Origin: Escherichia coli | GTDB lineage: Bacteria > Pseudomonadota > Gammaproteobacteria > Enterobacterales > Enterobacteriaceae | DNA: 64,000 nucleotides | NCBI RefSeq assembly: GCF_048403405.1 | Contig: NZ_CP183129.1 | Direction: 5' to 3' (one strand) | Part shown: one piece after another, positions 5,279-60,226 of the stretch | How positions within the stretch are numbered: the stretch's first letter is position 1 | How the letters are laid out: each line of letters opens with the position of its first letter | Notes under the pieces: generated by a model | Databases searched by the model: none | What the model saw: the letters and a program-made list of their open reading frames with translations, nothing else | Told to the model about the DNA's origin: nothing | Translations under genes and position numbers: made by a program

Positions 5279-6436
5279 ATGCACGTTACAGCCAAGCCCT
5301 CCAGTTTTCAATGTAATCTCAAATGTGATTACTGTTTTTACCTTGAAAAAGAGTCGCAGTTTACTCATGAAAAATGGATGGATGACAGCACTCTGAAAGA
5401 GTTCATCAAACAATATATCGCAGCGTCTGGCAATCAGGTCTATTTTACCTGGCAAGGCGGTGACCCCACTCTGGCTGGCCTGGATTTTTTCCGTAAAGTT
5501 ATTCACTATCAACAACGCTATGCAGGCCAAAAACGTATTTTTAATGCATTACAAACGAATGGCATTTTATTGAGTAATGAATGGTGTGCCTTTCTCAAAG
5601 AACATGAGTTTCTGGTTGGTATCTCGATCGATGGATCCCAGGAGCTACATGACCGTTACAGACGCAGTAATTCTGGTAACGGTACTTTTGCAAAAGTGAT
5701 AGCAGCCATCGAGCGTCTGAAATCATATCAAGTAGAGTTTAATACGTTAACCGTCATTAATAACGTCAATGTCCATTACCCTCTTGAGGTTTATCATTTT
5801 TTAAAATCTATCGGCAGTAAACATATGCAATTTATCGAATTGCTAGAAACCGGGACGCCGAATATTGATTTCAGTGGTCATAGTGAGAACACATTCCGTA
5901 TCATTGATTTTTCTGTGCCTCCTACGGCTTATGGCAAGTTTATGTCGACCATTTTTATGCAATGGGTTAAAAACGATGTGGGTGAAATTTTCATCCGTCA
6001 GTTTGAAAGCTTTGTCAGCCGTTTTTTGGGGAATGGGCATACCAGTTGTATTTTCCAGGAGTCCTGCAAGGATAATCTGGTTGTTGAAAGTAATGGAGAC
6101 ATTTACGAATGCGACCATTTTGTCTATCCACAGTACAAAATTGGAAACATTAATAAATCTGAACTTAAAACGATGAACAGTGTACAACTGACAGCGCAAA
6201 AAAAACGGATTTCAGCGAAATGTCAGCAATGTGCATATAAACCTATCTGCAATGGCGGTTGCCCTAAGCATCGTATTACTAAAGTAAACAATGAGACTGT
6301 TTCCTATTTTTGCGAAGGTTATAAAATCCTTTTTTCAACCATGGTACCTTATATGAACGCCATGGTGGAGTTAGCCAAGAACAGAGTACCGCTTTACCAC
6401 ATTATGGATGTTGCAAAACAAATGGAGAATAATTAA
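5279..6436 (+). CDS. ydeM: Anaerobic sulfatase-maturating enzyme homolog YdeM (radical SAM, SPASM domain)
   Basis: 385 aa from MHVTAK; CxxxCxxC-type radical-SAM cysteine cluster ([10 protein letters not shown]) and C-terminal Cys-rich SPASM region; adjacent to sulfatase ydeN. Confidence 0.88.
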
Positions 6437-33397: not shown

Positions 33398-33682
33398 ATG
33401 AAAATGGCCAATCATCCCCGCCCGGGGGACATTATTCAGGAATCACTGGACGAACTTAATGTCAGCCTGCGCGAGTTTGCCAGAGCAATGGAAATTGCGC
33501 CCTCAACGGCAAGCCGATTGCTGACCGGAAAAGCAGCTTTGACACCAGAAATGGCGATTAAACTTTCCGTGGTGATCGGCAGTTCGCCGCAAATGTGGCT
33601 GAATCTGCAAAACGCCTGGAGTCTGGCAGAGGCAGAAAAAACGGTGGATGTGTCGCGATTACGCCGTCTGGTTACGCAATAA
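33398..33682 (+). CDS. yddM: HigA/VapI-like HTH (XRE-family) protein YddM
   Basis: About 94 aa from [14 protein letters not shown]; the exact start is uncertain (ORF track begins at 33320). Confidence 0.7.
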
Positions 33683-33690
33683 ATAAATAT

Positions 33691-33714
33691 CCTCCGGCAT
33701 AGCCGGAGGTTTTT
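33691..33714 (+). terminator. Hairpin cctccggc-ata-gccggagg plus ttttt after yddM (may alternatively be an IS200 end structure)
   Basis: Perfect 8-bp stem plus T-run. Confidence 0.55.
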
Positions 33715-33790
33715 CAAATGCGCCTGTAAGGCTCTGTTACCAGCCGCGCCCTAACAGGCGCATACGATCTGACATTTGCATTCAACTTCG

Positions 33791-34249
33791 TTACTTACGG
33801 CCCGTAAACGGGCTGCCCGGATAGGGAATCGATAACTGCTCCCCCATTTTATCCTCTTCAAGCTGGTGCTTTATGTAGTCCTGTATCTTCGCCGTGTTCT
33901 TACCCACCGTATCGACATAGTACCCTCGGCACCAGAACTCCCTGTTTCTGTATTTGAATTTCAAATCCCCAAACTGCTCGTAAAGCATCAGACTGCTTTT
34001 CCCTTTCAGATATCCCATAAAGCCGGATACGCTCATTTTGGGTGGGATTTCCACAAGCATATGGATATGATCTGCGCAGCACTCTGCTTCCAGAATCCGT
34101 ACGCTTTTCCACTCACACAGCTTTCTCAAAATACTGCCTATCGCCCTACGCTTCTCTCCGTAAAACGCCAGTCTTCGGTATTTCGGCGCAAAAACTATGT
34201 GATATTTACAGTTCCAGCGGGTGTGCGCTAAGCTCTTTTCGTCCCCCAT
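33791..34249 (-). CDS. tnpA: IS200 transposase TnpA (Y1 HUH, 152 aa)
   Basis: MGDEKSLAHTRWNCKYHIVFAPKYRR…; contains the HUH motif (DHIHML) and a catalytic-Tyr region typical of IS200 TnpA. Confidence 0.88.
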   Translation of the reverse strand: MGDEKSLAHTRWNCKYHIVFAPKYRRLAFYGEKRRAIGSILRKLCEWKSVRILEAECCADHIHMLVEIPPKMSVSGFMGYLKGKSSLMLYEQFGDLKFKYRNREFWCRGYYVDTVGKNTAKIQDYIKHQLEEDKMGEQLSIPYPGSPFTGRK

Positions 34250-34387
34250 TGGGACCCCCTTTTGATTTCTTGTTTGACACTTGCAGTTGCCAGACCGCAA
34301 GGTGTTTTAACAAATCAAAAGGGGTTTTAATAACTGGCTCAAAGCTGAAAGCTTTCCGGAACCCCCAGCCTAGCTGGGGGTTTTCTG

Positions 34388-34422
34388 TGCACAAAAAAAT
34401 GGCGCTTCTTAAAGCGCCATTT
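34388..34422 (-). terminator. Rho-independent terminator of fdnGHI (aatggcgctt/aagcgccatt stem; T7 run on the minus strand)
   Basis: 10-bp stem followed by ttttttt in the minus-strand sense, just downstream of the fdnI stop. Confidence 0.7.
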
Positions 34423-34444
34423 TCAGCTTAAAGTTCAAAAGAGA

Positions 34445-35098
34445 TTATATCCCTTCTTCACTCTCTTTTTTCGCTTCTGCCTTCTCGATTTCACGATACC
34501 AGCGCGGATGGTGTTTCTTCGCCCAGCGACGGCTCACCTTCCCTTCGATCATCCCTTTAATCGATCCTTTCACCCAGAATGCCATATACATATGGATCAG
34601 GATGGCGTGGATCAGGATGATACCCGCAGCCGCGTGAATCAGCAGGCTGTAGCGAACAACCTGCATCGGGAAGTACTGCGCAAAGTACGGACGCCAGATA
34701 ATCACCCCGGTCACCAGCAGCACGAAAATCATGCTCATGATCGACCAGAACATCATCTTTTGCCCGGCGTTGTACTTACCGACATCCGCCACTTTGTGCT
34801 CATTGCCTTTTAATACTTCGACAATGTTCAACAGCCACGGAATATCTTTCTTATCCGGGATGTTGTGATGCACAAAACGCACAAACATAAACATCAGCGC
34901 GACGAAAATCGCAATGCCGAAGAACGGGTGCAAAATGCGTCCCATCTGCGGCGTACCGAAGGTTTGCGTCAGCCATTGCAGCGTCGGGAAGAAGAATGAA
35001 ATCCCGGACAGCGCCACCAGGAAGAAGCAAATCACCACGGTCCAGTGACAGGCGCGATCAATAAATTTGGTGCGCACAATCATTTTCGACTTACTCAT
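34445..35098 (-). CDS. fdnI: Formate dehydrogenase-N gamma subunit (cytochrome b556)
   Basis: 217 aa from [12 protein letters not shown]; membrane cytochrome b. Confidence 0.93.
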
Positions 35099-35975
35099 GA
35101 TGATCCTCCTCGTCATCGTCCACTTCCTTATTCGGGCCAATACCGATGTAGTGGAAAATCAACCCGGCAAAAGTGGCAATAAAGCCAGCCGCTGCCAGCG
35201 GTTTCAACGCGCCTTTCCACAGGCTTACCGAGGTGTCGATCTTCGGATCTTTCGGCAGACCGTGATACAGCTCCGGCTGATCGGCGTGATGCAGCACGTA
35301 CATAACGTGCGTACCACCGACCCCTTCCGGGTTGTAGACGCCAGCATGTTCGTAACCACGCGCTTTCAGTTTCGCCACGCGCTGTTCCGCCAGCTCCAGC
35401 ATCTCCTTCTTGGTGCCGAAGTGGATAGCCCCGGTCGGACAGGTTTTCACACAAGCCGGTTCCTGGCCGACGCTGACGCGATCGACGCAGAGCGTGCATT
35501 TATATACCCGGTTATCCTCTTTGTTGAGGCGCGGAATATTAAACGGACACCCGGCAATGCAGTAACCACAGCCGATGCAGTTTTCCGACTGGAAATCGAC
35601 AATCCCGTTAGCGTACTGAATGATTGCACCAGCAGACGGGCACGCCTTCAGGCAGCCCGGATCTTCACAGTGCATACAGCCGTCTTTACGGATCAGCCAC
35701 TCCAGCTTGCCGTTCTGTTCGGTTTCGCTAAAGCGCATCACCGTCCAGGACTTGGCGCTCAGATCGGCGGGGTTATCGTAAACCCCGACGCAGTGCCCCA
35801 CTTCATCACGGATGTCGTTCCACTCCGAACACGCCACCTGACAGGCTTTACAACCGATACAGGTGGAAACGTCGATAAGTTTCGCGACTTCTGCTTTGTA
35901 ATCACGCACCTGAGAAGGCGGCGTGATGGAGTTAGTTGCGGACCTTTTGATAATGTCCTGCGTTTCCATAGCCAT
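35091..35975 (-). CDS. fdnH: Formate dehydrogenase-N beta subunit (4Fe-4S ferredoxin-type)
   Basis: 294 aa; multiple CxxCxxCxxxC clusters. Confidence 0.93.
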
Positions 35976-35987
35976 CTGTTCGCCCCC

Positions 35988-38900
35988 TTACGCCTTCTCA
36001 ATGTTGACTAAGAACGCTTTATATTCCGGCGTTTGCGAGTTTGCATCACCGACATTCGGCGTCAGAGTGTTAGCGATATAACCTTTACGCGCGACACCCT
36101 CAAAGCCCCAGTGGATTGGAATACCCACCGTTTCAACCTGCTGACCGTTTACATTCAGCGGCTTCAGACGGCGCGTTACCACAGCCACCGCGCGGATAAA
36201 GCCACGCTTGCTGGATACGGTGACACGGTCGCCATTGGCGATGCCTTTCGCCGCCGCCAGCGTTTCGCTGATTTCCACAAACTGTTCCGGCTGAGCAATG
36301 GCGTTGAGCAATGCATGCTTAGTCCAGGTGTGGAAGTGCTCGGTCAGACGATAGGTCGTACCCACATACGGGAACTGCTCTTTTTTACCCATCCGCAGCG
36401 CGTCTTGTTCATACAGACGAACGACCGGGTTAGACACCACGTTCGGATGCAGCGGGTTAGTGCCCAGCGGCGTTTCAATTGGCTCGTAGTGTTCCGGGAA
36501 CGGACCTTCCGCCATTTTGTTGATGGCAAACAGGCGTCCCATCCCTTCCGGCTGCATGATAAACGGTCCGGTTAGTGTACCTGGCGCGGCATTGCCGAAG
36601 TCCGGAATATCGTTACCCGTCCACTTGCTGCCGTTCCACTGGATCAGCATCCGTTTCGGATCCCACGGTTTACCGTTGATATCCGCCGAAGCACGGTTGT
36701 AGAGTACGCGACGGTTGAGCGGCCACGCCCAGGCCCATCCCAGCGTATTCCCCAGACCGGACGGGTCGGAGTTATCGCGGTTAGCCATCTGGTTGCCCTG
36801 CTCTGTCCAGCTACCGGTGTAGATCCAGCAAGAAGATGCGGTTGTACCGTCATCACGCAGATGCGCAAAGCTACTCAGCAACTGACCTTTCTTCGCAATC
36901 AGCACGCCATTGGCATCATAGAGATCTTCCAGCGCGTAGCCGTTGTTCTCTTTAGCTACTTCGTCAGATTGCGGTTCGTGCGGCTGCTTGTAGTTCCAGC
37001 TCATCTTCATCAGCGGTTCTACGCCTTTACCACCTTCGGCCTGGTACAGCTCGCGCAGATGATGGTAGATACCCGCCAGAATTTCGCCGTCGTTACGCGC
37101 TTCGCCCGGCGCGTCCTGACCTTTCCAGTGCCACTGCAACCAGCGACCGGAGTTAGCAATAGAACCATCTTCCTCAGCAAAGCAGGTCGAAGGCAGACGG
37201 AATACTTCAGTCTGAATAGACGCAGGATCGACATCGTTCGACTCGCCGTGGTTCTGCCAGAAGGTAGAAGTTTCAGTCACCAGCGGATCGATAACCACCA
37301 TATACTTCAGCTTGCTCAGGCAGCTTACCACTTTGTTTTTGTCCGGGAAGGACGCAACCGGGTTAAAGCCCTGGCAGAAATAACCGGTGACTTTGCCTTC
37401 ATCCATCATGTTGAAATACTTGATGACGTCGTAGGTCTGGTCCCACTTGGGCAGCCAGTCGTAGCCCCAGTTGTTCTCTTTCTGCGCAGCATCGCCGTAG
37501 AAAGATTTCATCAGGCTAACGAAGAACTTCGGATAGTTGCTCCAGTAGTTCACCTGATCAGCCAGCGTCGCTTTCGGCGTGTTCGCTTCCAGATACGACT
37601 GCAAATCAACCTGTTTTTCTGACGGCAGCGTCAGATAACCCGGCAGGCTGGTAGAGAGCAGGCCTAAGTCGGTCAGCCCCTGAATGTTGGAGTGACCACG
37701 CAATGCGTTCACGCCGCCACCGGCCATACCCATGTTACCGAGCAGTAACTGGATCATCGCCATAGTACGGATGTTCTGCGCACCCACGGTGTGCTGCGTC
37801 CAGCCCAGCGCGTAAAGGAAGGTGGTTGTGCGATCCGGTGCGCTGGTGGAGGCCAGCACTTCACACACTTTCAGGAAGTCGGCTTTTGGCGTACCACAGA
37901 TGTTTTCTACTACGTCCGGCGTGTAGCGGGAAACGTGCTCTTTCAGCAAGTTCCACACACAGCGCGGATGAGTCAGTGTTTCATCGCGTTTCGCATAGCC
38001 GTTTTCATCGAACTGATAGTTCCAGGACGATTTATCGTATTGACGTTTTTCAGCGTCGTAGCCGCTGAACAGACCGTCTTCGAAAGCAAAATCATCACGC
38101 ACCAGCAGACTGGCGTTGGTGTAATGCTTAACGTATTCGGCGTTGATTTTGTTGTTTTCGATCAGGTAGCGCAAAACGCCAGACAGGAACGTAATGTCCG
38201 TACCGGAACGAATAGGTGCGTAAATATCCGCTACAGAAGCGGTACGCGTAAAACGGGGATCGACAACGATCAAGGTTGCATCGTTGTTGTTTTTCGCTTC
38301 CATCGCCCAGCGGAAACCGACGGGATGCGCTTCAGCAGCGTTACCGCCCATCACCATTACGACGTTAGCGTTTTTGATATCCACCCAGTGGTTGGTCATC
38401 GCACCGCGACCAAATGTTGGAGCAAGACTTGCTACCGTTGGTCCGTGTCAGACGCGCGCCTGGTTGTCTACCGCCAGCATCCCGAGGGAGCGGGCAAATT
38501 TCTGGGTCAGCATCCCGGTTTCGTTGCTGGCACCGGAGGCACACAGCATACCGGTAGAAAGCCAACGGTTTACCGTTACGCCCTGCTCGTTCTTTTCAAT
38601 AAAGTTAGCGTCACGGTCAGCTTTCATCAGCTTCGCAATACGGGAGAATGCTTCATCCCAGCTAATGCGCTGCCATTTGTCAGAACCTGGCGCACGATAT
38701 TCCGGGTAGCGCAGACGGTTTTCGCTGTTGACGTAATCCAGCAAACCGGCCCCTTTCGGGCACAGCGCACCACGGCTTACCGGATGATCCGGGTCACCTT
38801 CAATGTGATAAATCGCTTCTCTGGCGTTTTTCGCGCCATCACCCAGGCTATACATCAATAGCCCGCAACCTACGGAACAGTATGTGCAGGTGTTACGGAT

Positions 38901-39035
38901 CTCTTTAGCGCGTAATAATTTGTAGTTTCGCGCCTGAGCCAGTGCTTGCTTTGGGGCAAAGCCCAATGCCGCTACTGTTGTTCCAGCCATACCGCCCGCG
39001 CAGATTTTAAAAAATTGTCTGCGACTGACGTCCAT
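35988..39035 (-). CDS. fdnG: Formate dehydrogenase-N alpha subunit, selenoprotein; in-frame TGA (Sec) at 38448..38450
   Basis: Twin-arginine signal (MDVSRRQFFKICAGG) in the 195-aa upstream ORF; TGA followed in the same frame by the 803-aa ORF; combined 1015 aa matches FdnG. Confidence 0.9.
38400..38447 (-). promoter_or_regulatory. Presumed SECIS region immediately 3' of the fdnG UGA codon
   Basis: Position only, based on the bacterial SECIS rule; structure not verified. Confidence 0.45.
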
Positions 39036-39099
39036 TGCTTTCCTCTTTTTTCAGGGGTATTACTGCGCGAGGAAACTAACAGTAAAATTCTGAATCTTT

Positions 39100-39113
39100 T
39101 TGCGCGAAATCAA
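39100..39113. promoter_or_regulatory. FNR-like site (TTGCG-CGAA-ATCAA) in the fdnG/yddG divergent promoter region
   Basis: Partial match to TTGAT-N4-ATCAA about 65 bp upstream of the fdnG start. Confidence 0.35.
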
Positions 39114-39266
39114 AAAGAACACGTGTTTGCCACAAAATAATCCGCCTGCGCAAATTGACCTACCTCAATAGCGGTAGAAAAACGCACCACTGCCTGACAG
39201 GCCAGTTAAAAAAATGCTATAAAATTCAGCTTAATTTTTAACGGCAAGAGAGACAAAACAGCGAGC

Positions 39267-40148
39267 ATGACACGACAAAAAGCAACGCTCATAGGGCTAA
39301 TAGCGATCGTCCTGTGGAGCACGATGGTAGGATTGATTCGCGGTGTCAGTGAGGGGCTCGGCCCGGTCGGCGGTGCAGCTGCTATCTATTCATTAAGCGG
39401 GCTGCTGTTAATCTTCACGGTTGGATTTCCGCGTATTCGGCAGATCCCGAAAGGCTATTTACTCGCCGGGTGTCTGTTATTCGTCAGCTATGAAATCTGT
39501 CTGGCGCTTTCCTTAGGATATGCGGCGACCCGTCATCAGGCGATTGAAGTGGGTATGGTGAACTATCTGTGGCCCAGCCTGACAATTCTCTTTGCCATTC
39601 TGTTTAATGGTCAGAAAACCAACTGGCTGATTGTACCAGGATTATTATTAGCCCTGGTTGGCGTCTGCTGGGTGTTAGGTGGTGACAATGGATTACATTA
39701 TGATGAAATCATCAATAATATCACCACCAGCCCATTGAGTTATTTCCTGGCGTTTATTGGTGCGTTTATCTGGGCAGCCTACTGCACAGTAACGAATAAA
39801 TACGCACGCGGATTTAACGGAATTACCGTTTTTGTCCTGCTAACGGGAGCAAGTCTGTGGGTTTACTATTTTCTCACGCCACAACCAGAAATGGTATTTA
39901 GCACGCCAGTCATGATTAAACTCATCTCTGCGGCATTTACCTTAGGATTTGCTTATGCTGCATGGAACGTCGGTATATTACATGGCAACGTCACCATTAT
40001 GGCGGTAGGTTCGTATTTTACGCCCGTCCTTTCCTCAGCGCTTGCAGCCGTGCTGCTCAGCGCCCCGCTGTCGTTCTCGTTCTGGCAAGGCGCGCTAATG
40101 GTCTGCGGCGGTTCCCTGCTCTGCTGGCTGGCGACACGTCGTGGCTAA
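39267..40148 (+). CDS. yddG: Aromatic amino acid exporter YddG (DMT superfamily)
   Basis: 293-aa polytopic membrane protein. Confidence 0.9.
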   Translation: MTRQKATLIGLIAIVLWSTMVGLIRGVSEGLGPVGGAAAIYSLSGLLLIFTVGFPRIRQIPKGYLLAGCLLFVSYEICLALSLGYAATRHQAIEVGMVNYLWPSLTILFAILFNGQKTNWLIVPGLLLALVGVCWVLGGDNGLHYDEIINNITTSPLSYFLAFIGAFIWAAYCTVTNKYARGFNGITVFVLLTGASLWVYYFLTPQPEMVFSTPVMIKLISAAFTLGFAYAAWNVGILHGNVTIMAVGSYFTPVLSSALAAVLLSAPLSFSFWQGALMVCGGSLLCWLATRRG

Positions 40149-40406
40149 AATAATTGTCGGGTCTACGGCCCGGCAGTTAATCAGATAAATTCCGACAATA
40201 TAAAAAAATAAATTTCAAATACCAGTAGTTCACCTTATATTTCATTTCGACTTCGATCACATATCGATAAATAATATTATTTCATCTATTTTTCTCATTG
40301 TTTTTAATCACCATTCTATTTTAAAAACAGTATGTCATTTATAAATGACGCCGTTTAAAATTCGTTTAGAAAATACGTTTAACGATAATTAAAAGGATTC
40401 TGTTAA

Positions 40407-41507
40407 ATGAAATTAAAAATAGTTGCGGTGGTTGTAACTGGTTTGTTAGCTGCGAACGTAGCACACGCTGCCGAAGTCTATAACAAGGATGGTAATAAAC
40501 TCGACCTTTATGGCAAGGTTACCGCTCTACGTTATTTTACTGATGATAAGCGTGACGATGGTGATAAAACTTATGCCCGTCTCGGCTTTAAAGGAGAAAC
40601 GCAAATCAATGATCAAATGATTGGTTTTGGTCACTGGGAATATGATTTTAAAGGCTATAACGATGAAGCCAACGGCTCGCGCGGTAACAAGACCCGTCTG
40701 GCCTATGCAGGTTTAAAAATTAGTGAATTTGGCTCTCTGGACTATGGTCGTAACTACGGTGTCGGCTATGACATTGGTTCATGGACCGATATGTTGCCAG
40801 AATTTGGTGGCGATACCTGGAGTCAGAAAGATGTCTTCATGACATACCGTACTACCGGTGTGGCAACCTATCGCAACTACGATTTCTTCGGCTTAATTGA
40901 AGGTCTGAACTTTGCCGCGCAATATCAAGGCAAAAATGAACGCACTGACAATGGCCATCTTTATGGTGCTGACTACACGCGTGCCAATGGTGACGGTTTC
41001 GGTATCTCCTCAACTTATGTTTATGATGGCTTTGGTATCGGTGCGGTGTATACCAAATCCGATCGGACAAATGCGCAGGAAAGAGCCGCTGCTAATCCTC
41101 TCAATGCCTCCGGTAAGAATGCAGAACTGTGGGCTACAGGTATAAAATATGATGCCAACAACATCTACTTTGCAGCTAATTACGCTGAAACATTAAACAT
41201 GACCACCTATGGCGATGGTTATATCTCTAACAAAGCACAAAGTTTTGAAGTAGTGGCACAATATCAATTCGACTTCGGCTTGCGCCCATCACTCGCTTAC
41301 CTGAAATCGAAAGGCAGAGATCTGGGCCGCTACGGCGACCAGGACATGATTGAGTATATCGACGTTGGTGCGACGTATTTCTTCAACAAAAATATGTCGA
41401 CCTATGTTGATTATAAAATCAACCTGATTGATGAAAGCGACTTTACCCGTGCCGTAGATATTCGCACCGATAACATCGTCGCAACGGGCATTACCTATCA
41501 GTTCTAA
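40407..41507 (+). CDS. yddL: OmpC/OmpF-family general porin, apparently intact (K-12 yddL position)
   Basis: 366 aa; signal peptide (…[23 protein letters not shown]); C-terminal …TGITYQF. Confidence 0.8.
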
Positions 41508-41518
41508 CATCCTCTCCT

Positions 41519-41547
41519 GACCAGCCCTTCTCTGGGCTGGTTTTTGA
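41519..41547 (+). terminator. Rho-independent terminator after the porin gene (ccagccc/gggctgg plus ttttt)
   Basis: Read directly. Confidence 0.7.
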
Positions 41548-41670
41548 TTTAAGTGCTGCTGTATGACTCCTTAAGTAAAAATGAGCAATTTTTGATATTT
41601 CTGGTCACTCACCTCAATTAATATTCTTCCATACCCTCCGGGGACATCTTACTATAATATTTATTGATGT

Positions 41671-59641: not shown

Positions 59642-60226
59642 TTTGTTCTCCTTAATTATGTAAGGAGTATTTGATCATGTATACGCAATAAAAAACAGCT
59701 TCAGGTAATGAGGAATATCTCAATTGTTAAACATAAAATGCGAATTGTCTAGTACAAAAAAGCAGCGTTACGTGATCTTTCCGTGGATCGTCAAATTGTT
59801 CGAGAGAAAATACCAACATGATGGATTTTACTGTAAAAGTAATGTCGTAGTTTAAAAACTCATCATCCGGTAAAGCCTTGTGGGGCGTGGGCTTTCATAC
59901 TTTTACCCTGATGTCTGCTATACGCCGGACACCCTTTACGTAGCATTCGGAATTCACCCGTAAATTTATCACGGCGGTATCACGAAACCTCCGGTTCTGA
60001 TGCCGCTTAGGACTAACGACACGTCAACACAGGTTCGGGTTTATTCATTTCACTGTATCTCATATAATCTGAGCACTCCCCCTGCGCTCGCTACTATGAC
60101 TCTTTACCACAGCAACCGGGGTTGTTTGGGATCGGCTTTCAACAGCAGATCCCGGTGGCTATTGCAAGTAAGTCTACTTTCCACATCAGTGTTACTGACA
60201 CAGAAAATAATGAGTTATGATCCTTG

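What the first reader, a model, noticed from the sequence alone, without database searches (positions are those of the whole stretch)
38400..38450. In-frame UGA in fdnG is selenocysteine recoding, not a pseudogene
The ORF track splits fdnG into 195-aa and 803-aa pieces at TGA 38448..38450. The downstream reading frame is continuous with it, and the combined 1015 aa matches the known selenoprotein FdnG (Sec at residue 196). A SECIS hairpin is expected directly 3' of the UGA.
Basis: partly seen in the sequence, partly recalled or inferred. Interest (0 to 1): 0.3.

Follow-up and report, generated by a model that had tools for sequence, protein, structure and literature searches.

The report
Selenocysteine UGA and SECIS in fdnG
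The apparent stop codon that splits this E. coli formate dehydrogenase gene is the well-known UGA that is read as selenocysteine with the help of an RNA hairpin right after it, so the gene is intact and the finding is correct but ordinary.

Summary
Confirmed, and already known. The window is E. coli chromosome. fdnG lies on the minus strand (35988..39035) and has one in-frame TGA, at + strand 38448..38450, which is codon 196. The frame is open on both sides: 195 + 1 + 819 = 1015 residues. The product aligns end to end with the crystal-structure sequence of formate dehydrogenase-N alpha (PDB 1kqf_A), and the TGA falls on its residue 196, which that sequence also writes as X.

Directly 3' of the UGA, Rfam SECIS_3 (RF01989) matches at 84.3 bits against a gathering score of 63. 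The hairpin has the same bulged U17 and loop G23/U24 spacing as the fdhF SECIS. The same 59 nt are identical in the paralogue fdoG and in 22 loci of other enterobacterial species, while their flanks are about 80% identical. Across 75 distinct sequences from many phyla, the apical helix is 96.8% paired and 4 of its 7 pairs show changes on both sides, two of them between synonymous third-codon positions.

selC, selA/B and selD are in at least 5424 of 5426 complete E. coli genomes. The window itself does not contain them. RefSeq already annotates a single fdnG CDS across the TGA, and UGA = Sec in fdnG was published in 1991. Folding energy alone does not discriminate. Interest is low.

The parts
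35988..39035 (-). fdnG, formate dehydrogenase-N alpha subunit: 1015 codons plus stop, with Sec at codon 196 and an N-terminal twin-arginine motif (SRRQFFK)
   Evidence: Translation. RefSeq annotates a single CDS across the TGA in a 99.98%-identical genome. PDB 1kqf_A aligns 1-1015 to 1-1015 at 2392 bits. NCBIfam TIGR01553 scores 1622.7 bits against a cut-off of 814.
38448..38450 (-). In-frame UGA, codon 196, decoded as selenocysteine
   Evidence: The + strand reads 'tca'. It is the only internal stop. It aligns with residue 196 of 1kqf_A, also written as X. The same TGA is at codon 196 of K-12 fdoG and codon 140 of fdhF.
38395..38453 (-). Full match to Rfam SECIS_3 (RF01989), model positions 1-59
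   Evidence: 84.3 bits against a gathering score of 63, E = 7.6e-20. It was found again in the scan of the whole window. The 59 nt are identical to the K-12 fdoG SECIS.
38405..38447 (-). SECIS hairpin proper (16 base pairs in the Rfam consensus), starting at the base after the UGA
   Evidence: Rfam structure line. The MFE fold reproduces it. On 75 distinct sequences, 89.9% of cells are paired, against 28-50% when the 3' partners are slid by 1-3 columns.
38419..38436 (-). Apical minihelix GG-U-AGCAA-GUC-UUGCU-CC, the inferred SelB-binding part. Bulged U17 is at 38434; loop G23 and U24 are at 38428 and 38427.
   Evidence: Same register as the fdhF SECIS. The helix is 96.8% paired and 4 of its 7 pairs show changes on both sides. 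U17 and U24 are invariant and G23 is at least 90% conserved across 76 sequences. The minihelix folds at z = -2.43. SelB binding is inferred from established work on fdhF and fdnG and was not tested here.
35091..35975 (-). fdnH, beta subunit, next gene in the operon
   Evidence: RefSeq annotation of the matching genome, mapped to the window
34445..35098 (-). fdnI, gamma subunit, last gene of the operon
   Evidence: RefSeq annotation of the matching genome, mapped to the window

Best explanation
This is the E. coli fdnGHI operon. The UGA at codon 196 of fdnG is recoded as selenocysteine. The mRNA directly 3' of the UGA folds into a SECIS hairpin. By established knowledge of the bacterial Sec pathway, SelB carrying GTP and Sec-tRNA(Sec) binds the hairpin's apical minihelix (bulged U17, loop G23/U24). 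When the UGA reaches the ribosomal A site, SelB delivers selenocysteine in competition with release factor 2. The full 1015-residue catalytic subunit is then made, with Sec196 as a ligand of the molybdenum centre. Shown here: the gene's identity, the open frame on both sides, the alignment of the UGA with residue 196 of the solved protein, the SECIS match and its register, RNA-level selection on the hairpin, and the near-universal presence of the sel genes in E. coli genomes. Inferred and not shown: SelB binding, actual selenium incorporation, and its efficiency in this strain.
For: There is one internal TGA at codon 196, with 195 open codons before it and 819 after. The window is 99.94-99.97% identical to E. 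coli TUM14771, where RefSeq annotates one fdnG CDS across the TGA, flanked by fdnH, fdnI and yddG. PDB 1kqf_A aligns 1-1015 with X at 196 opposite the TGA. TIGR01553 is matched well above its cut-off. Rfam SECIS_3 scores 84.3 bits against 63 at 38395..38453 (-). Bulged U17 and loop G23/U24 are in the same register as in the fdhF SECIS_2. The longest identical run between fdnG and fdoG is 71 nt at codons 195-218; the next longest is 35 nt and overall identity is 74%. In that region 20 of 20 conserved-residue codons are identical, against 57% gene-wide. Twenty-two loci of other enterobacterial species carry the identical 59-mer while their 240-nt flanks are 79% and 82% identical. Across 75 distinct sequences the apical helix is 96.8% paired. 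Pairs 21-33 and 24-30 join third codon positions and covary: GC/AU/CG at the first, AU/CG/GC at the second. The covariation score is 0.232, against 0.115 for shuffles (0 of 500 reach it) and 0.10 or less for slid controls. selC, selB plus part of selA, and selD are in 5424-5425 of 5426 genomes. A 2026 review (PMC13188914) names the three E. coli formate dehydrogenases as the best-characterised bacterial SECIS elements and cites Berg et al. 1991 for UGA = Sec in fdnG.
Against: Folding energy alone is unremarkable. The 56-nt segment scores z = -0.45 (61 of 200 shuffles fold at least as well), the 42-nt segment z = 0.02, and only the apical minihelix reaches z = -2.43. The lower helix is less well supported than the apical one (84.6% paired, one pair with changes on both sides), and its 5' arm was partly fixed by the search pattern used to collect the homologues. 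The sel genes are not in the window, which holds no tRNA gene at all, so their presence in this exact strain is inferred from other E. coli genomes. Some invariant bases, such as U17 (second position of a Val codon), are also constrained by the protein.
Confidence: 0.98

Rival explanations
1. fdnG is a pseudogene in this strain, inactivated by a nonsense mutation at codon 196.
For: A mechanical ORF call splits the gene into 195-aa and 803-aa pieces.
Against: The TGA sits exactly at the position that the solved-structure sequence of the functional enzyme (1kqf_A) also writes as X, residue 196. The 819 codons after it are open, and only five substitutions were seen in the displayed alignment to the crystallised protein. 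The TGA region is at least 99% identical in 5366 of 5433 E. coli records. The same TGA occurs in 116 loci of other species with open frames on both sides. A SECIS follows it.
Confidence: 0.005
2. The TGA is a sequencing or assembly error for a sense codon such as TGC (Cys), and the enzyme is a Cys-type formate dehydrogenase.
For: Cys-containing homologues of Sec formate dehydrogenases exist in other bacteria (general knowledge, not tested here).
Against: The 4-kb query around the gene is 100% identical in at least ten independent complete genomes. The TGA-containing 91-mer is at least 99% identical in 5366 records. The solved-structure sequence has X (Sec), not C, at residue 196.
Confidence: 0.003
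3. The gene is the paralogue fdoG (formate dehydrogenase-O), not fdnG.
For: The 59-nt SECIS is identical in fdoG, both genes have Sec at residue 196, and the two proteins share 781 of 1016 aligned positions.
Against: The length is 1015 aa, not 1016. The protein matches the 1kqf_A sequence (nitrate-inducible enzyme) with only five substitutions seen. The neighbours are fdnH, fdnI, yddG, adhP and narZ/narU, whereas fdoG lies next to fdhD in K-12. Nucleotide identity to K-12 fdoG is only 74%.
Confidence: 0.005
4. The extreme conservation of the 59-71 nt after the UGA reflects protein-level constraint on active-site residues or gene conversion between fdnG and fdoG, not an RNA structure.
For: The segment encodes the conserved active-site peptide U-HGPTVASLAPTFGRGAM. 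U17 is the second position of a Val codon. The paralogues could exchange sequence by gene conversion.
Against: Synonymous sites are conserved as well: 20 of 20 codons against 57% gene-wide. In more distant species, third-codon positions on opposite arms covary to keep pairing (columns 21-33 and 24-30). Where residues change (Ala-Ser-Leu-Ala to Ser-Ser-Leu-Gly), the codons change so that the pairs are kept (GCA/UGC to UCC/GGG). U24 is an invariant third-codon base. Gene conversion cannot explain identity across genera whose flanks are about 80% identical.
Confidence: 0.02

Closest known systems
E. coli K-12 fdnG (b1474) Sec196 UGA with its SECIS, Rfam RF01989 SECIS_3; protein structure PDB 1KQF/1KQG
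   Same: It is the same gene in another E. coli strain. The length (1015 aa), the Sec position (196) and the operon and neighbours are the same, and the match to the SECIS_3 model is full-length.
   Different: Only strain-level differences were found. Five amino-acid substitutions were seen in the displayed alignment to the 1kqf_A sequence (D127 vs E, F342 vs L, A666 vs S, L821 vs P, A933 vs N). An IS200/IS605 copy lies downstream of fdnI.
E. coli fdoG (formate dehydrogenase-O alpha) SECIS
   Same: The 59-nt SECIS_3 sequence and the Sec196 position are identical, and 71 nt are identical across codons 195-218.
   Different: It is a paralogous gene at another locus, next to fdhD. It is 1016 aa and 74% identical in nucleotides overall.
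E. coli fdhF (formate dehydrogenase-H) SECIS, Rfam RF01988 SECIS_2, the reference bacterial SECIS
   Same: The UGA is followed at once by a hairpin. Bulged U17 and loop G23/U24 are at the same distance from the UGA, and the sequence UGACACGG..CC..CGGU.GCA.GUCU is shared.
   Different: The apical stem and loop differ: fdhF has UGCA-GGUC-UGCA (4 pairs, tetraloop) and fdnG has AGCAA-GUC-UUGCU (5 pairs, triloop as drawn by Rfam). The lower stem also differs. The window element scores only 28.8 bits against a gathering score of 70 on SECIS_2. Sec is at residue 140 of a 715-aa cytoplasmic enzyme.

Membership tests
Bacterial SECIS element (Rfam RF01989, SECIS_3) | In-frame UGA inside a coding region, with the reading frame open on both sides | tested here: met
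   One TGA at codon 196, with 195 codons before it and 819 after
Bacterial SECIS element (Rfam RF01989, SECIS_3) | Sequence and structure match to the family covariance model at or above its gathering score, placed directly 3' of the UGA | tested here: met
   84.3 bits against 63, model positions 1-59 of 59, with the hairpin starting at the base after the UGA
Bacterial SECIS element (Rfam RF01989, SECIS_3) | Apical minihelix with a bulged U at +17 and G/U in the loop at +23/+24 (U of the UGA = +1), the SelB recognition determinants known from fdhF | tested here: met
   Same register as fdhF in the alignment. U17 and U24 are invariant and G23 is at least 90% conserved in 76 sequences. That these bases are the determinants is established knowledge and was not tested here.
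Bacterial SECIS element (Rfam RF01989, SECIS_3) | Base pairing kept in evolution by compensatory changes | tested here: met
   The apical helix is 96.8% paired and 4 of its 7 pairs change on both sides. The covariation score is 0.232 against 0.115 for shuffles and 0.10 or less for slid controls. The lower helix is weaker at 84.6%.
Bacterial SECIS element (Rfam RF01989, SECIS_3) | Thermodynamic stability beyond that of shuffled sequence | tested here: inconclusive
   z = -0.45 for 56 nt, 0.02 for 42 nt and -2.43 for the apical 19 nt. The reference fdhF SECIS is no better (z = -0.91 and -1.24), so this test does not discriminate.
Bacterial SECIS element (Rfam RF01989, SECIS_3) | Sec machinery (selA, selB, selC, selD) present in the same genome | tested here: inconclusive
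   The genes are not in the 64-kb window, which has no tRNA gene. They are present in 5424-5425 of 5426 complete E. coli genomes, and K-12 selC matches Rfam tRNA-Sec. The source strain's own genome was not available.
Bacterial SECIS element (Rfam RF01989, SECIS_3) | SelB binding and selenium-dependent read-through of the UGA | not testable with these tools
   This needs a gel shift, a UGA-lacZ fusion, 75Se labelling or mass spectrometry.
Formate dehydrogenase-N alpha subunit FdnG (NCBIfam TIGR01553; PDB 1KQF) | Full-length match to the equivalog model above its curated cut-off | tested here: met
   1622.7 bits against 814.2, residues 2-1014 on profile positions 1-1009
Formate dehydrogenase-N alpha subunit FdnG (NCBIfam TIGR01553; PDB 1KQF) | Catalytic selenocysteine at the position that is Sec196 in the solved structure | tested here: met
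   The TGA codon (entered as X) aligns with X196 of 1kqf_A in an ungapped 1-1015 alignment.
Formate dehydrogenase-N alpha subunit FdnG (NCBIfam TIGR01553; PDB 1KQF) | fdnGHI operon organisation and the fdn locus (not the fdo locus) | tested here: met
   fdnH and fdnI follow on the same strand. yddG is divergent upstream, and adhP and narZ/narU are nearby. The fdo locus in K-12 has fdhD upstream instead.
Pseudogene (nonsense-disrupted) | A stop codon that is absent from functional orthologues, usually with decay of the downstream frame | tested here: not met
   The TGA is present in the crystallised enzyme's gene position, in essentially all E. coli genomes and in 116 loci of other species. The downstream frame is intact.

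The most novel reading that the evidence does not exclude
In Enterobacterales the 59 nt around the UGA are frozen: fdnG and fdoG are identical there, and so are 22 loci of other species and genera whose flanks are about 80% identical. Other clades vary the same hairpin freely through compensatory changes. This could mean that enterobacterial SelB or the ribosome reads more of the element than the apical minihelix (lower stem and 3' flank, base by base), or that there is an additional overlapping function. The evidence here does not exclude this reading and does not test it.
Probability: 0.1. Interest if true: 0.2.

Novelty: already known. Interest (0 to 1): 0.05.

Why it matters
The value is practical. 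A naive ORF caller splits a functional selenoprotein gene in two, so a scan should recognise UGA followed by a SECIS and not report a pseudogene. Biologically nothing is new. UGA = Sec in fdnG was published in 1991 (Berg et al., cited in PMC13188914). The Sec196-Mo site is seen in PDB 1KQF, the RNA element is a curated Rfam family, and RefSeq already annotates the CDS across the TGA.

Tried and rejected
1) Folding energy was tried as a test for the SECIS. The z-scores are weak for the whole element, and the reference fdhF element is no better, so energy was dropped as a criterion in favour of the covariance model and covariation.

X was used at residue 196 instead.

3) Rfam SECIS_2 (the fdhF type) was considered as the family. 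It scores 28.8 bits against a gathering score of 70, so the element is SECIS_3, not SECIS_2.

4) H22, the most divergent E. coli hit to the 91-mer (96.6%), was fetched to look for within-species variation. It appears to be a 3051-nt fdoG-length gene labelled fdnG in a genome with only one place, so it gave no fdnG variants and was not pursued.

5) The pseudogene, sequencing-error and fdoG-identity readings were tested and rejected (see the rival explanations).

6) The promoter/terminator scan of 33400..39400 found no more sites than shuffles do. It gave no information on fdn regulation.

7) The paper searches found no open-access primary paper on the fdnG hairpin itself. They found only reviews and genome papers that cite the primary work.

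Full report
**Observation.** The ORF list for 36500..44000 contains a 195-aa ORF at 38448..39035 (-) and an 803-aa ORF at 35988..38399 (-). The + strand reads 'tca' at 38448..38450, which is TGA on the minus strand. Translating 35988..39035 (-) in one frame gives 1015 codons plus the terminal stop, with a single internal stop at codon 196. The 803-aa figure comes from the ORF caller's need for a start codon (Met213). The frame is in fact open from the codon after the TGA, so 195 + 1 + 819 = 1015. It omitted that the gene is on the minus strand.

**Identity of the gene.** A 4-kb query around the site is 100% identical to at least ten complete E. coli chromosomes and matches 5425 of 5426 genomes. 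The features under the match are annotated fdnG, fdnH and yddG. In the near-identical strain TUM14771 (99.94-99.98% over the window), RefSeq annotates one 3048-nt fdnG CDS across the TGA. It is followed by fdnH and fdnI, with yddG divergent upstream and adhP, maeA, narU and narZ nearby. The product, with X at 196, aligns 1-1015 to 1-1015 with PDB 1kqf_A ('formate dehydrogenase, nitrate-inducible, major subunit') at 2392 bits. That sequence also has X at residue 196, opposite the TGA, and only five substitutions were seen in the displayed alignment. NCBIfam TIGR01553 (formate dehydrogenase-N subunit alpha, equivalog) scores 1622.7 bits against a cut-off of 814.2. The gene is not the paralogue fdoG. 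K-12 fdoG is 1016 aa, lies next to fdhD, and is 74% identical in nucleotides.

**The SECIS element.** Rfam SECIS_3 (RF01989) matches 38395..38453 (-) over the whole model at 84.3 bits (gathering score 63, E = 7.6e-20). SECIS_2, the fdhF type, reaches only 28.8 bits against 70. The hairpin starts at the base after the UGA and occupies 38405..38447. Its apical part is GG-U-AGCAA-GUC-UUGCU-CC at 38419..38436.
- The MFE fold reproduces this structure.
- Folding energy is not discriminating: z = -0.45 for 56 nt, 0.02 for 42 nt and -2.43 for the apical minihelix. The reference fdhF element is no better.
- Aligned with K-12 fdoG and fdhF, the bulged U lies at +17 and the loop G and U at +23/+24 from the U of the UGA in all three. 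By established knowledge these are the SelB recognition determinants of the fdhF SECIS.
- K-12 fdoG carries the identical 59 nt (84.3 bits), fdhF matches SECIS_2 (87.1 bits), and selC matches Rfam tRNA-Sec.

**Evidence for RNA-level selection, independent of Rfam.**
- Between the window's fdnG and K-12 fdoG, the longest identical run is 71 nt at codons 195-218. The next longest is 35 nt, against 74% identity overall.
- Among codons for conserved residues, 20 of 20 are identical in the window of codons 195-216, against 57% gene-wide. Only 7 of 713 sliding windows reach 19 of 20.
- One scan of genome contigs used a pattern that fixes only the upstream coding motif and the first bases after the stop (CARGCNCGNGTNTGACAYGG, that is Q-A-R-V-TGA-H-G).
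- Of those, 116 are FdnG-type genes with open frames on both sides of the TGA. They come from Alpha-, Beta- and Gammaproteobacteria, Acidobacteriota, Desulfovibrionaceae, Actinomycetota, Chloroflexota and others. Three are chance hits and one is cut by a contig end.
- Twenty-two loci of other enterobacterial species (Citrobacter, Enterobacter, Klebsiella, Yersinia, Photorhabdus, Providencia, E. albertii and others) have the identical 59-mer. Their 240-nt flanks average 79% and 82% identity to the window.
- On 75 distinct sequences and the Rfam structure, 89.9% of cells are standard pairs, against 28-50% when the 3' partners are slid by 1-3 columns.
- The covariation score is 0.232, against 0.115 for shuffles (0 of 500 as high) and 0.10 or less for slid controls.
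- The apical helix is 96.8% paired, and 4 of its 7 pairs change on both sides.
- Two of these pairs join third codon positions: Val201/Ala205 with GC 56, AU 7, CG 7; and Ala202/Leu204 with AU 40, CG 29, GC 4. Protein constraint therefore cannot explain them.
- Where residues change (ASLA to SSLG), pairing is kept.
- The lower helix is weaker (84.6%), and its 5' arm was partly fixed by the search pattern.

**Sec machinery.** The window has no tRNA gene and does not contain the sel genes. K-12 selC, selB plus part of selA, and selD were used as queries. They are found in 5424, 5425 and 5425 of 5426 complete E. coli genomes.

**Mechanism.** By established knowledge, summarised in PMC13188914, the steps are:
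1. SelD makes selenophosphate.
2. SelA converts Ser-tRNA(Sec) to Sec-tRNA(Sec).
3. SelB with GTP and Sec-tRNA(Sec) binds the SECIS just downstream of the UGA.
4. SelB delivers Sec when the UGA enters the A site.

Shown here are the cis elements and their conservation. SelB binding and selenium incorporation are inferred.

**Comparison with what is known.** This is the known fdnG Sec196 recoding site. It was published by Berg et al. [quoted passage not shown] It is solved as PDB 1KQF, curated as Rfam RF01989, and annotated in RefSeq.

**Verdict.** The finding is already known and of low interest (0.05). The only mildly open point is why the enterobacterial 59-mer is frozen base for base while other clades vary it by compensatory change. 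This was noted and not pursued.

Noticed in passing
window 33682..34397 (tnpA 33791..34249, -; STnc490 match 34259..34382, -): An IS200/IS605 copy sits between fdnI and yddM. It carries a full-length match to the Rfam Hfq-binding sRNA STnc490 (146 bits against 56). Strain TUM14771 has a second identical copy between digH and gadC that the window lacks; the junction is near window 17164..17173.
   Followed up: partly
window 60051..60159 (-): Rfam group-II-D1D4-2 (RF01999) matches at 48 bits against 36. The match lies in the gap between a pentapeptide-repeat gene and a frameshifted ISAs1-family transposase next to an RHS core gene. It is probably a group II intron fragment. No reverse-transcriptase ORF was looked for.
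   Followed up: no
window 38383..38453 (-) vs L004 (K-12 fdoG): fdnG and fdoG share a 71-nt perfectly identical run at codons 195-218, twice the next longest run, in genes that are 74% identical overall. The 59-mer is also identical in 22 loci of other enterobacterial species whose flanks are about 80% identical. The element is conserved more tightly than pairing alone requires.
   Followed up: partly
loci L033, L065 (Desulfovibrionaceae) and L088, L114 (Eggerthellaceae): These FdnG-type genes keep V-TGA-HGP but have a different sequence in the apical region (for example GGTACCGGCTCTGGCAGAG, encoding VPALAE) and lack G23. They probably carry a different SECIS form.
   Followed up: no
window 40407..41507 (+), 41671..42936 (+): Between yddG and narU there is a 366-aa porin gene that RefSeq labels 'ompC', followed by a leucine-rich-repeat protein gene. 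From memory, K-12 has the fragmentary yddL/yddK/yddJ here. This was not checked.
   Followed up: no
window 1..about 1860 (-): The window starts inside ydeP, an FdhF/YdeP-family molybdoenzyme gene and a distant relative of fdnG (TIGR01701 and NF007406 appear among the weak hits of FdnG). Whether it has Cys or another residue at the Sec-equivalent position was not examined.
   Followed up: no
NZ_CP061758.1 4634135..4637185 (L009): In E. coli O68:H12 strain 97.3 the only match to the SECIS 91-mer is a 3051-nt CDS, the length of fdoG, that RefSeq labels fdnG. This genome may lack the true fdnG, or the label may be a paralogue mix-up.
   Followed up: no
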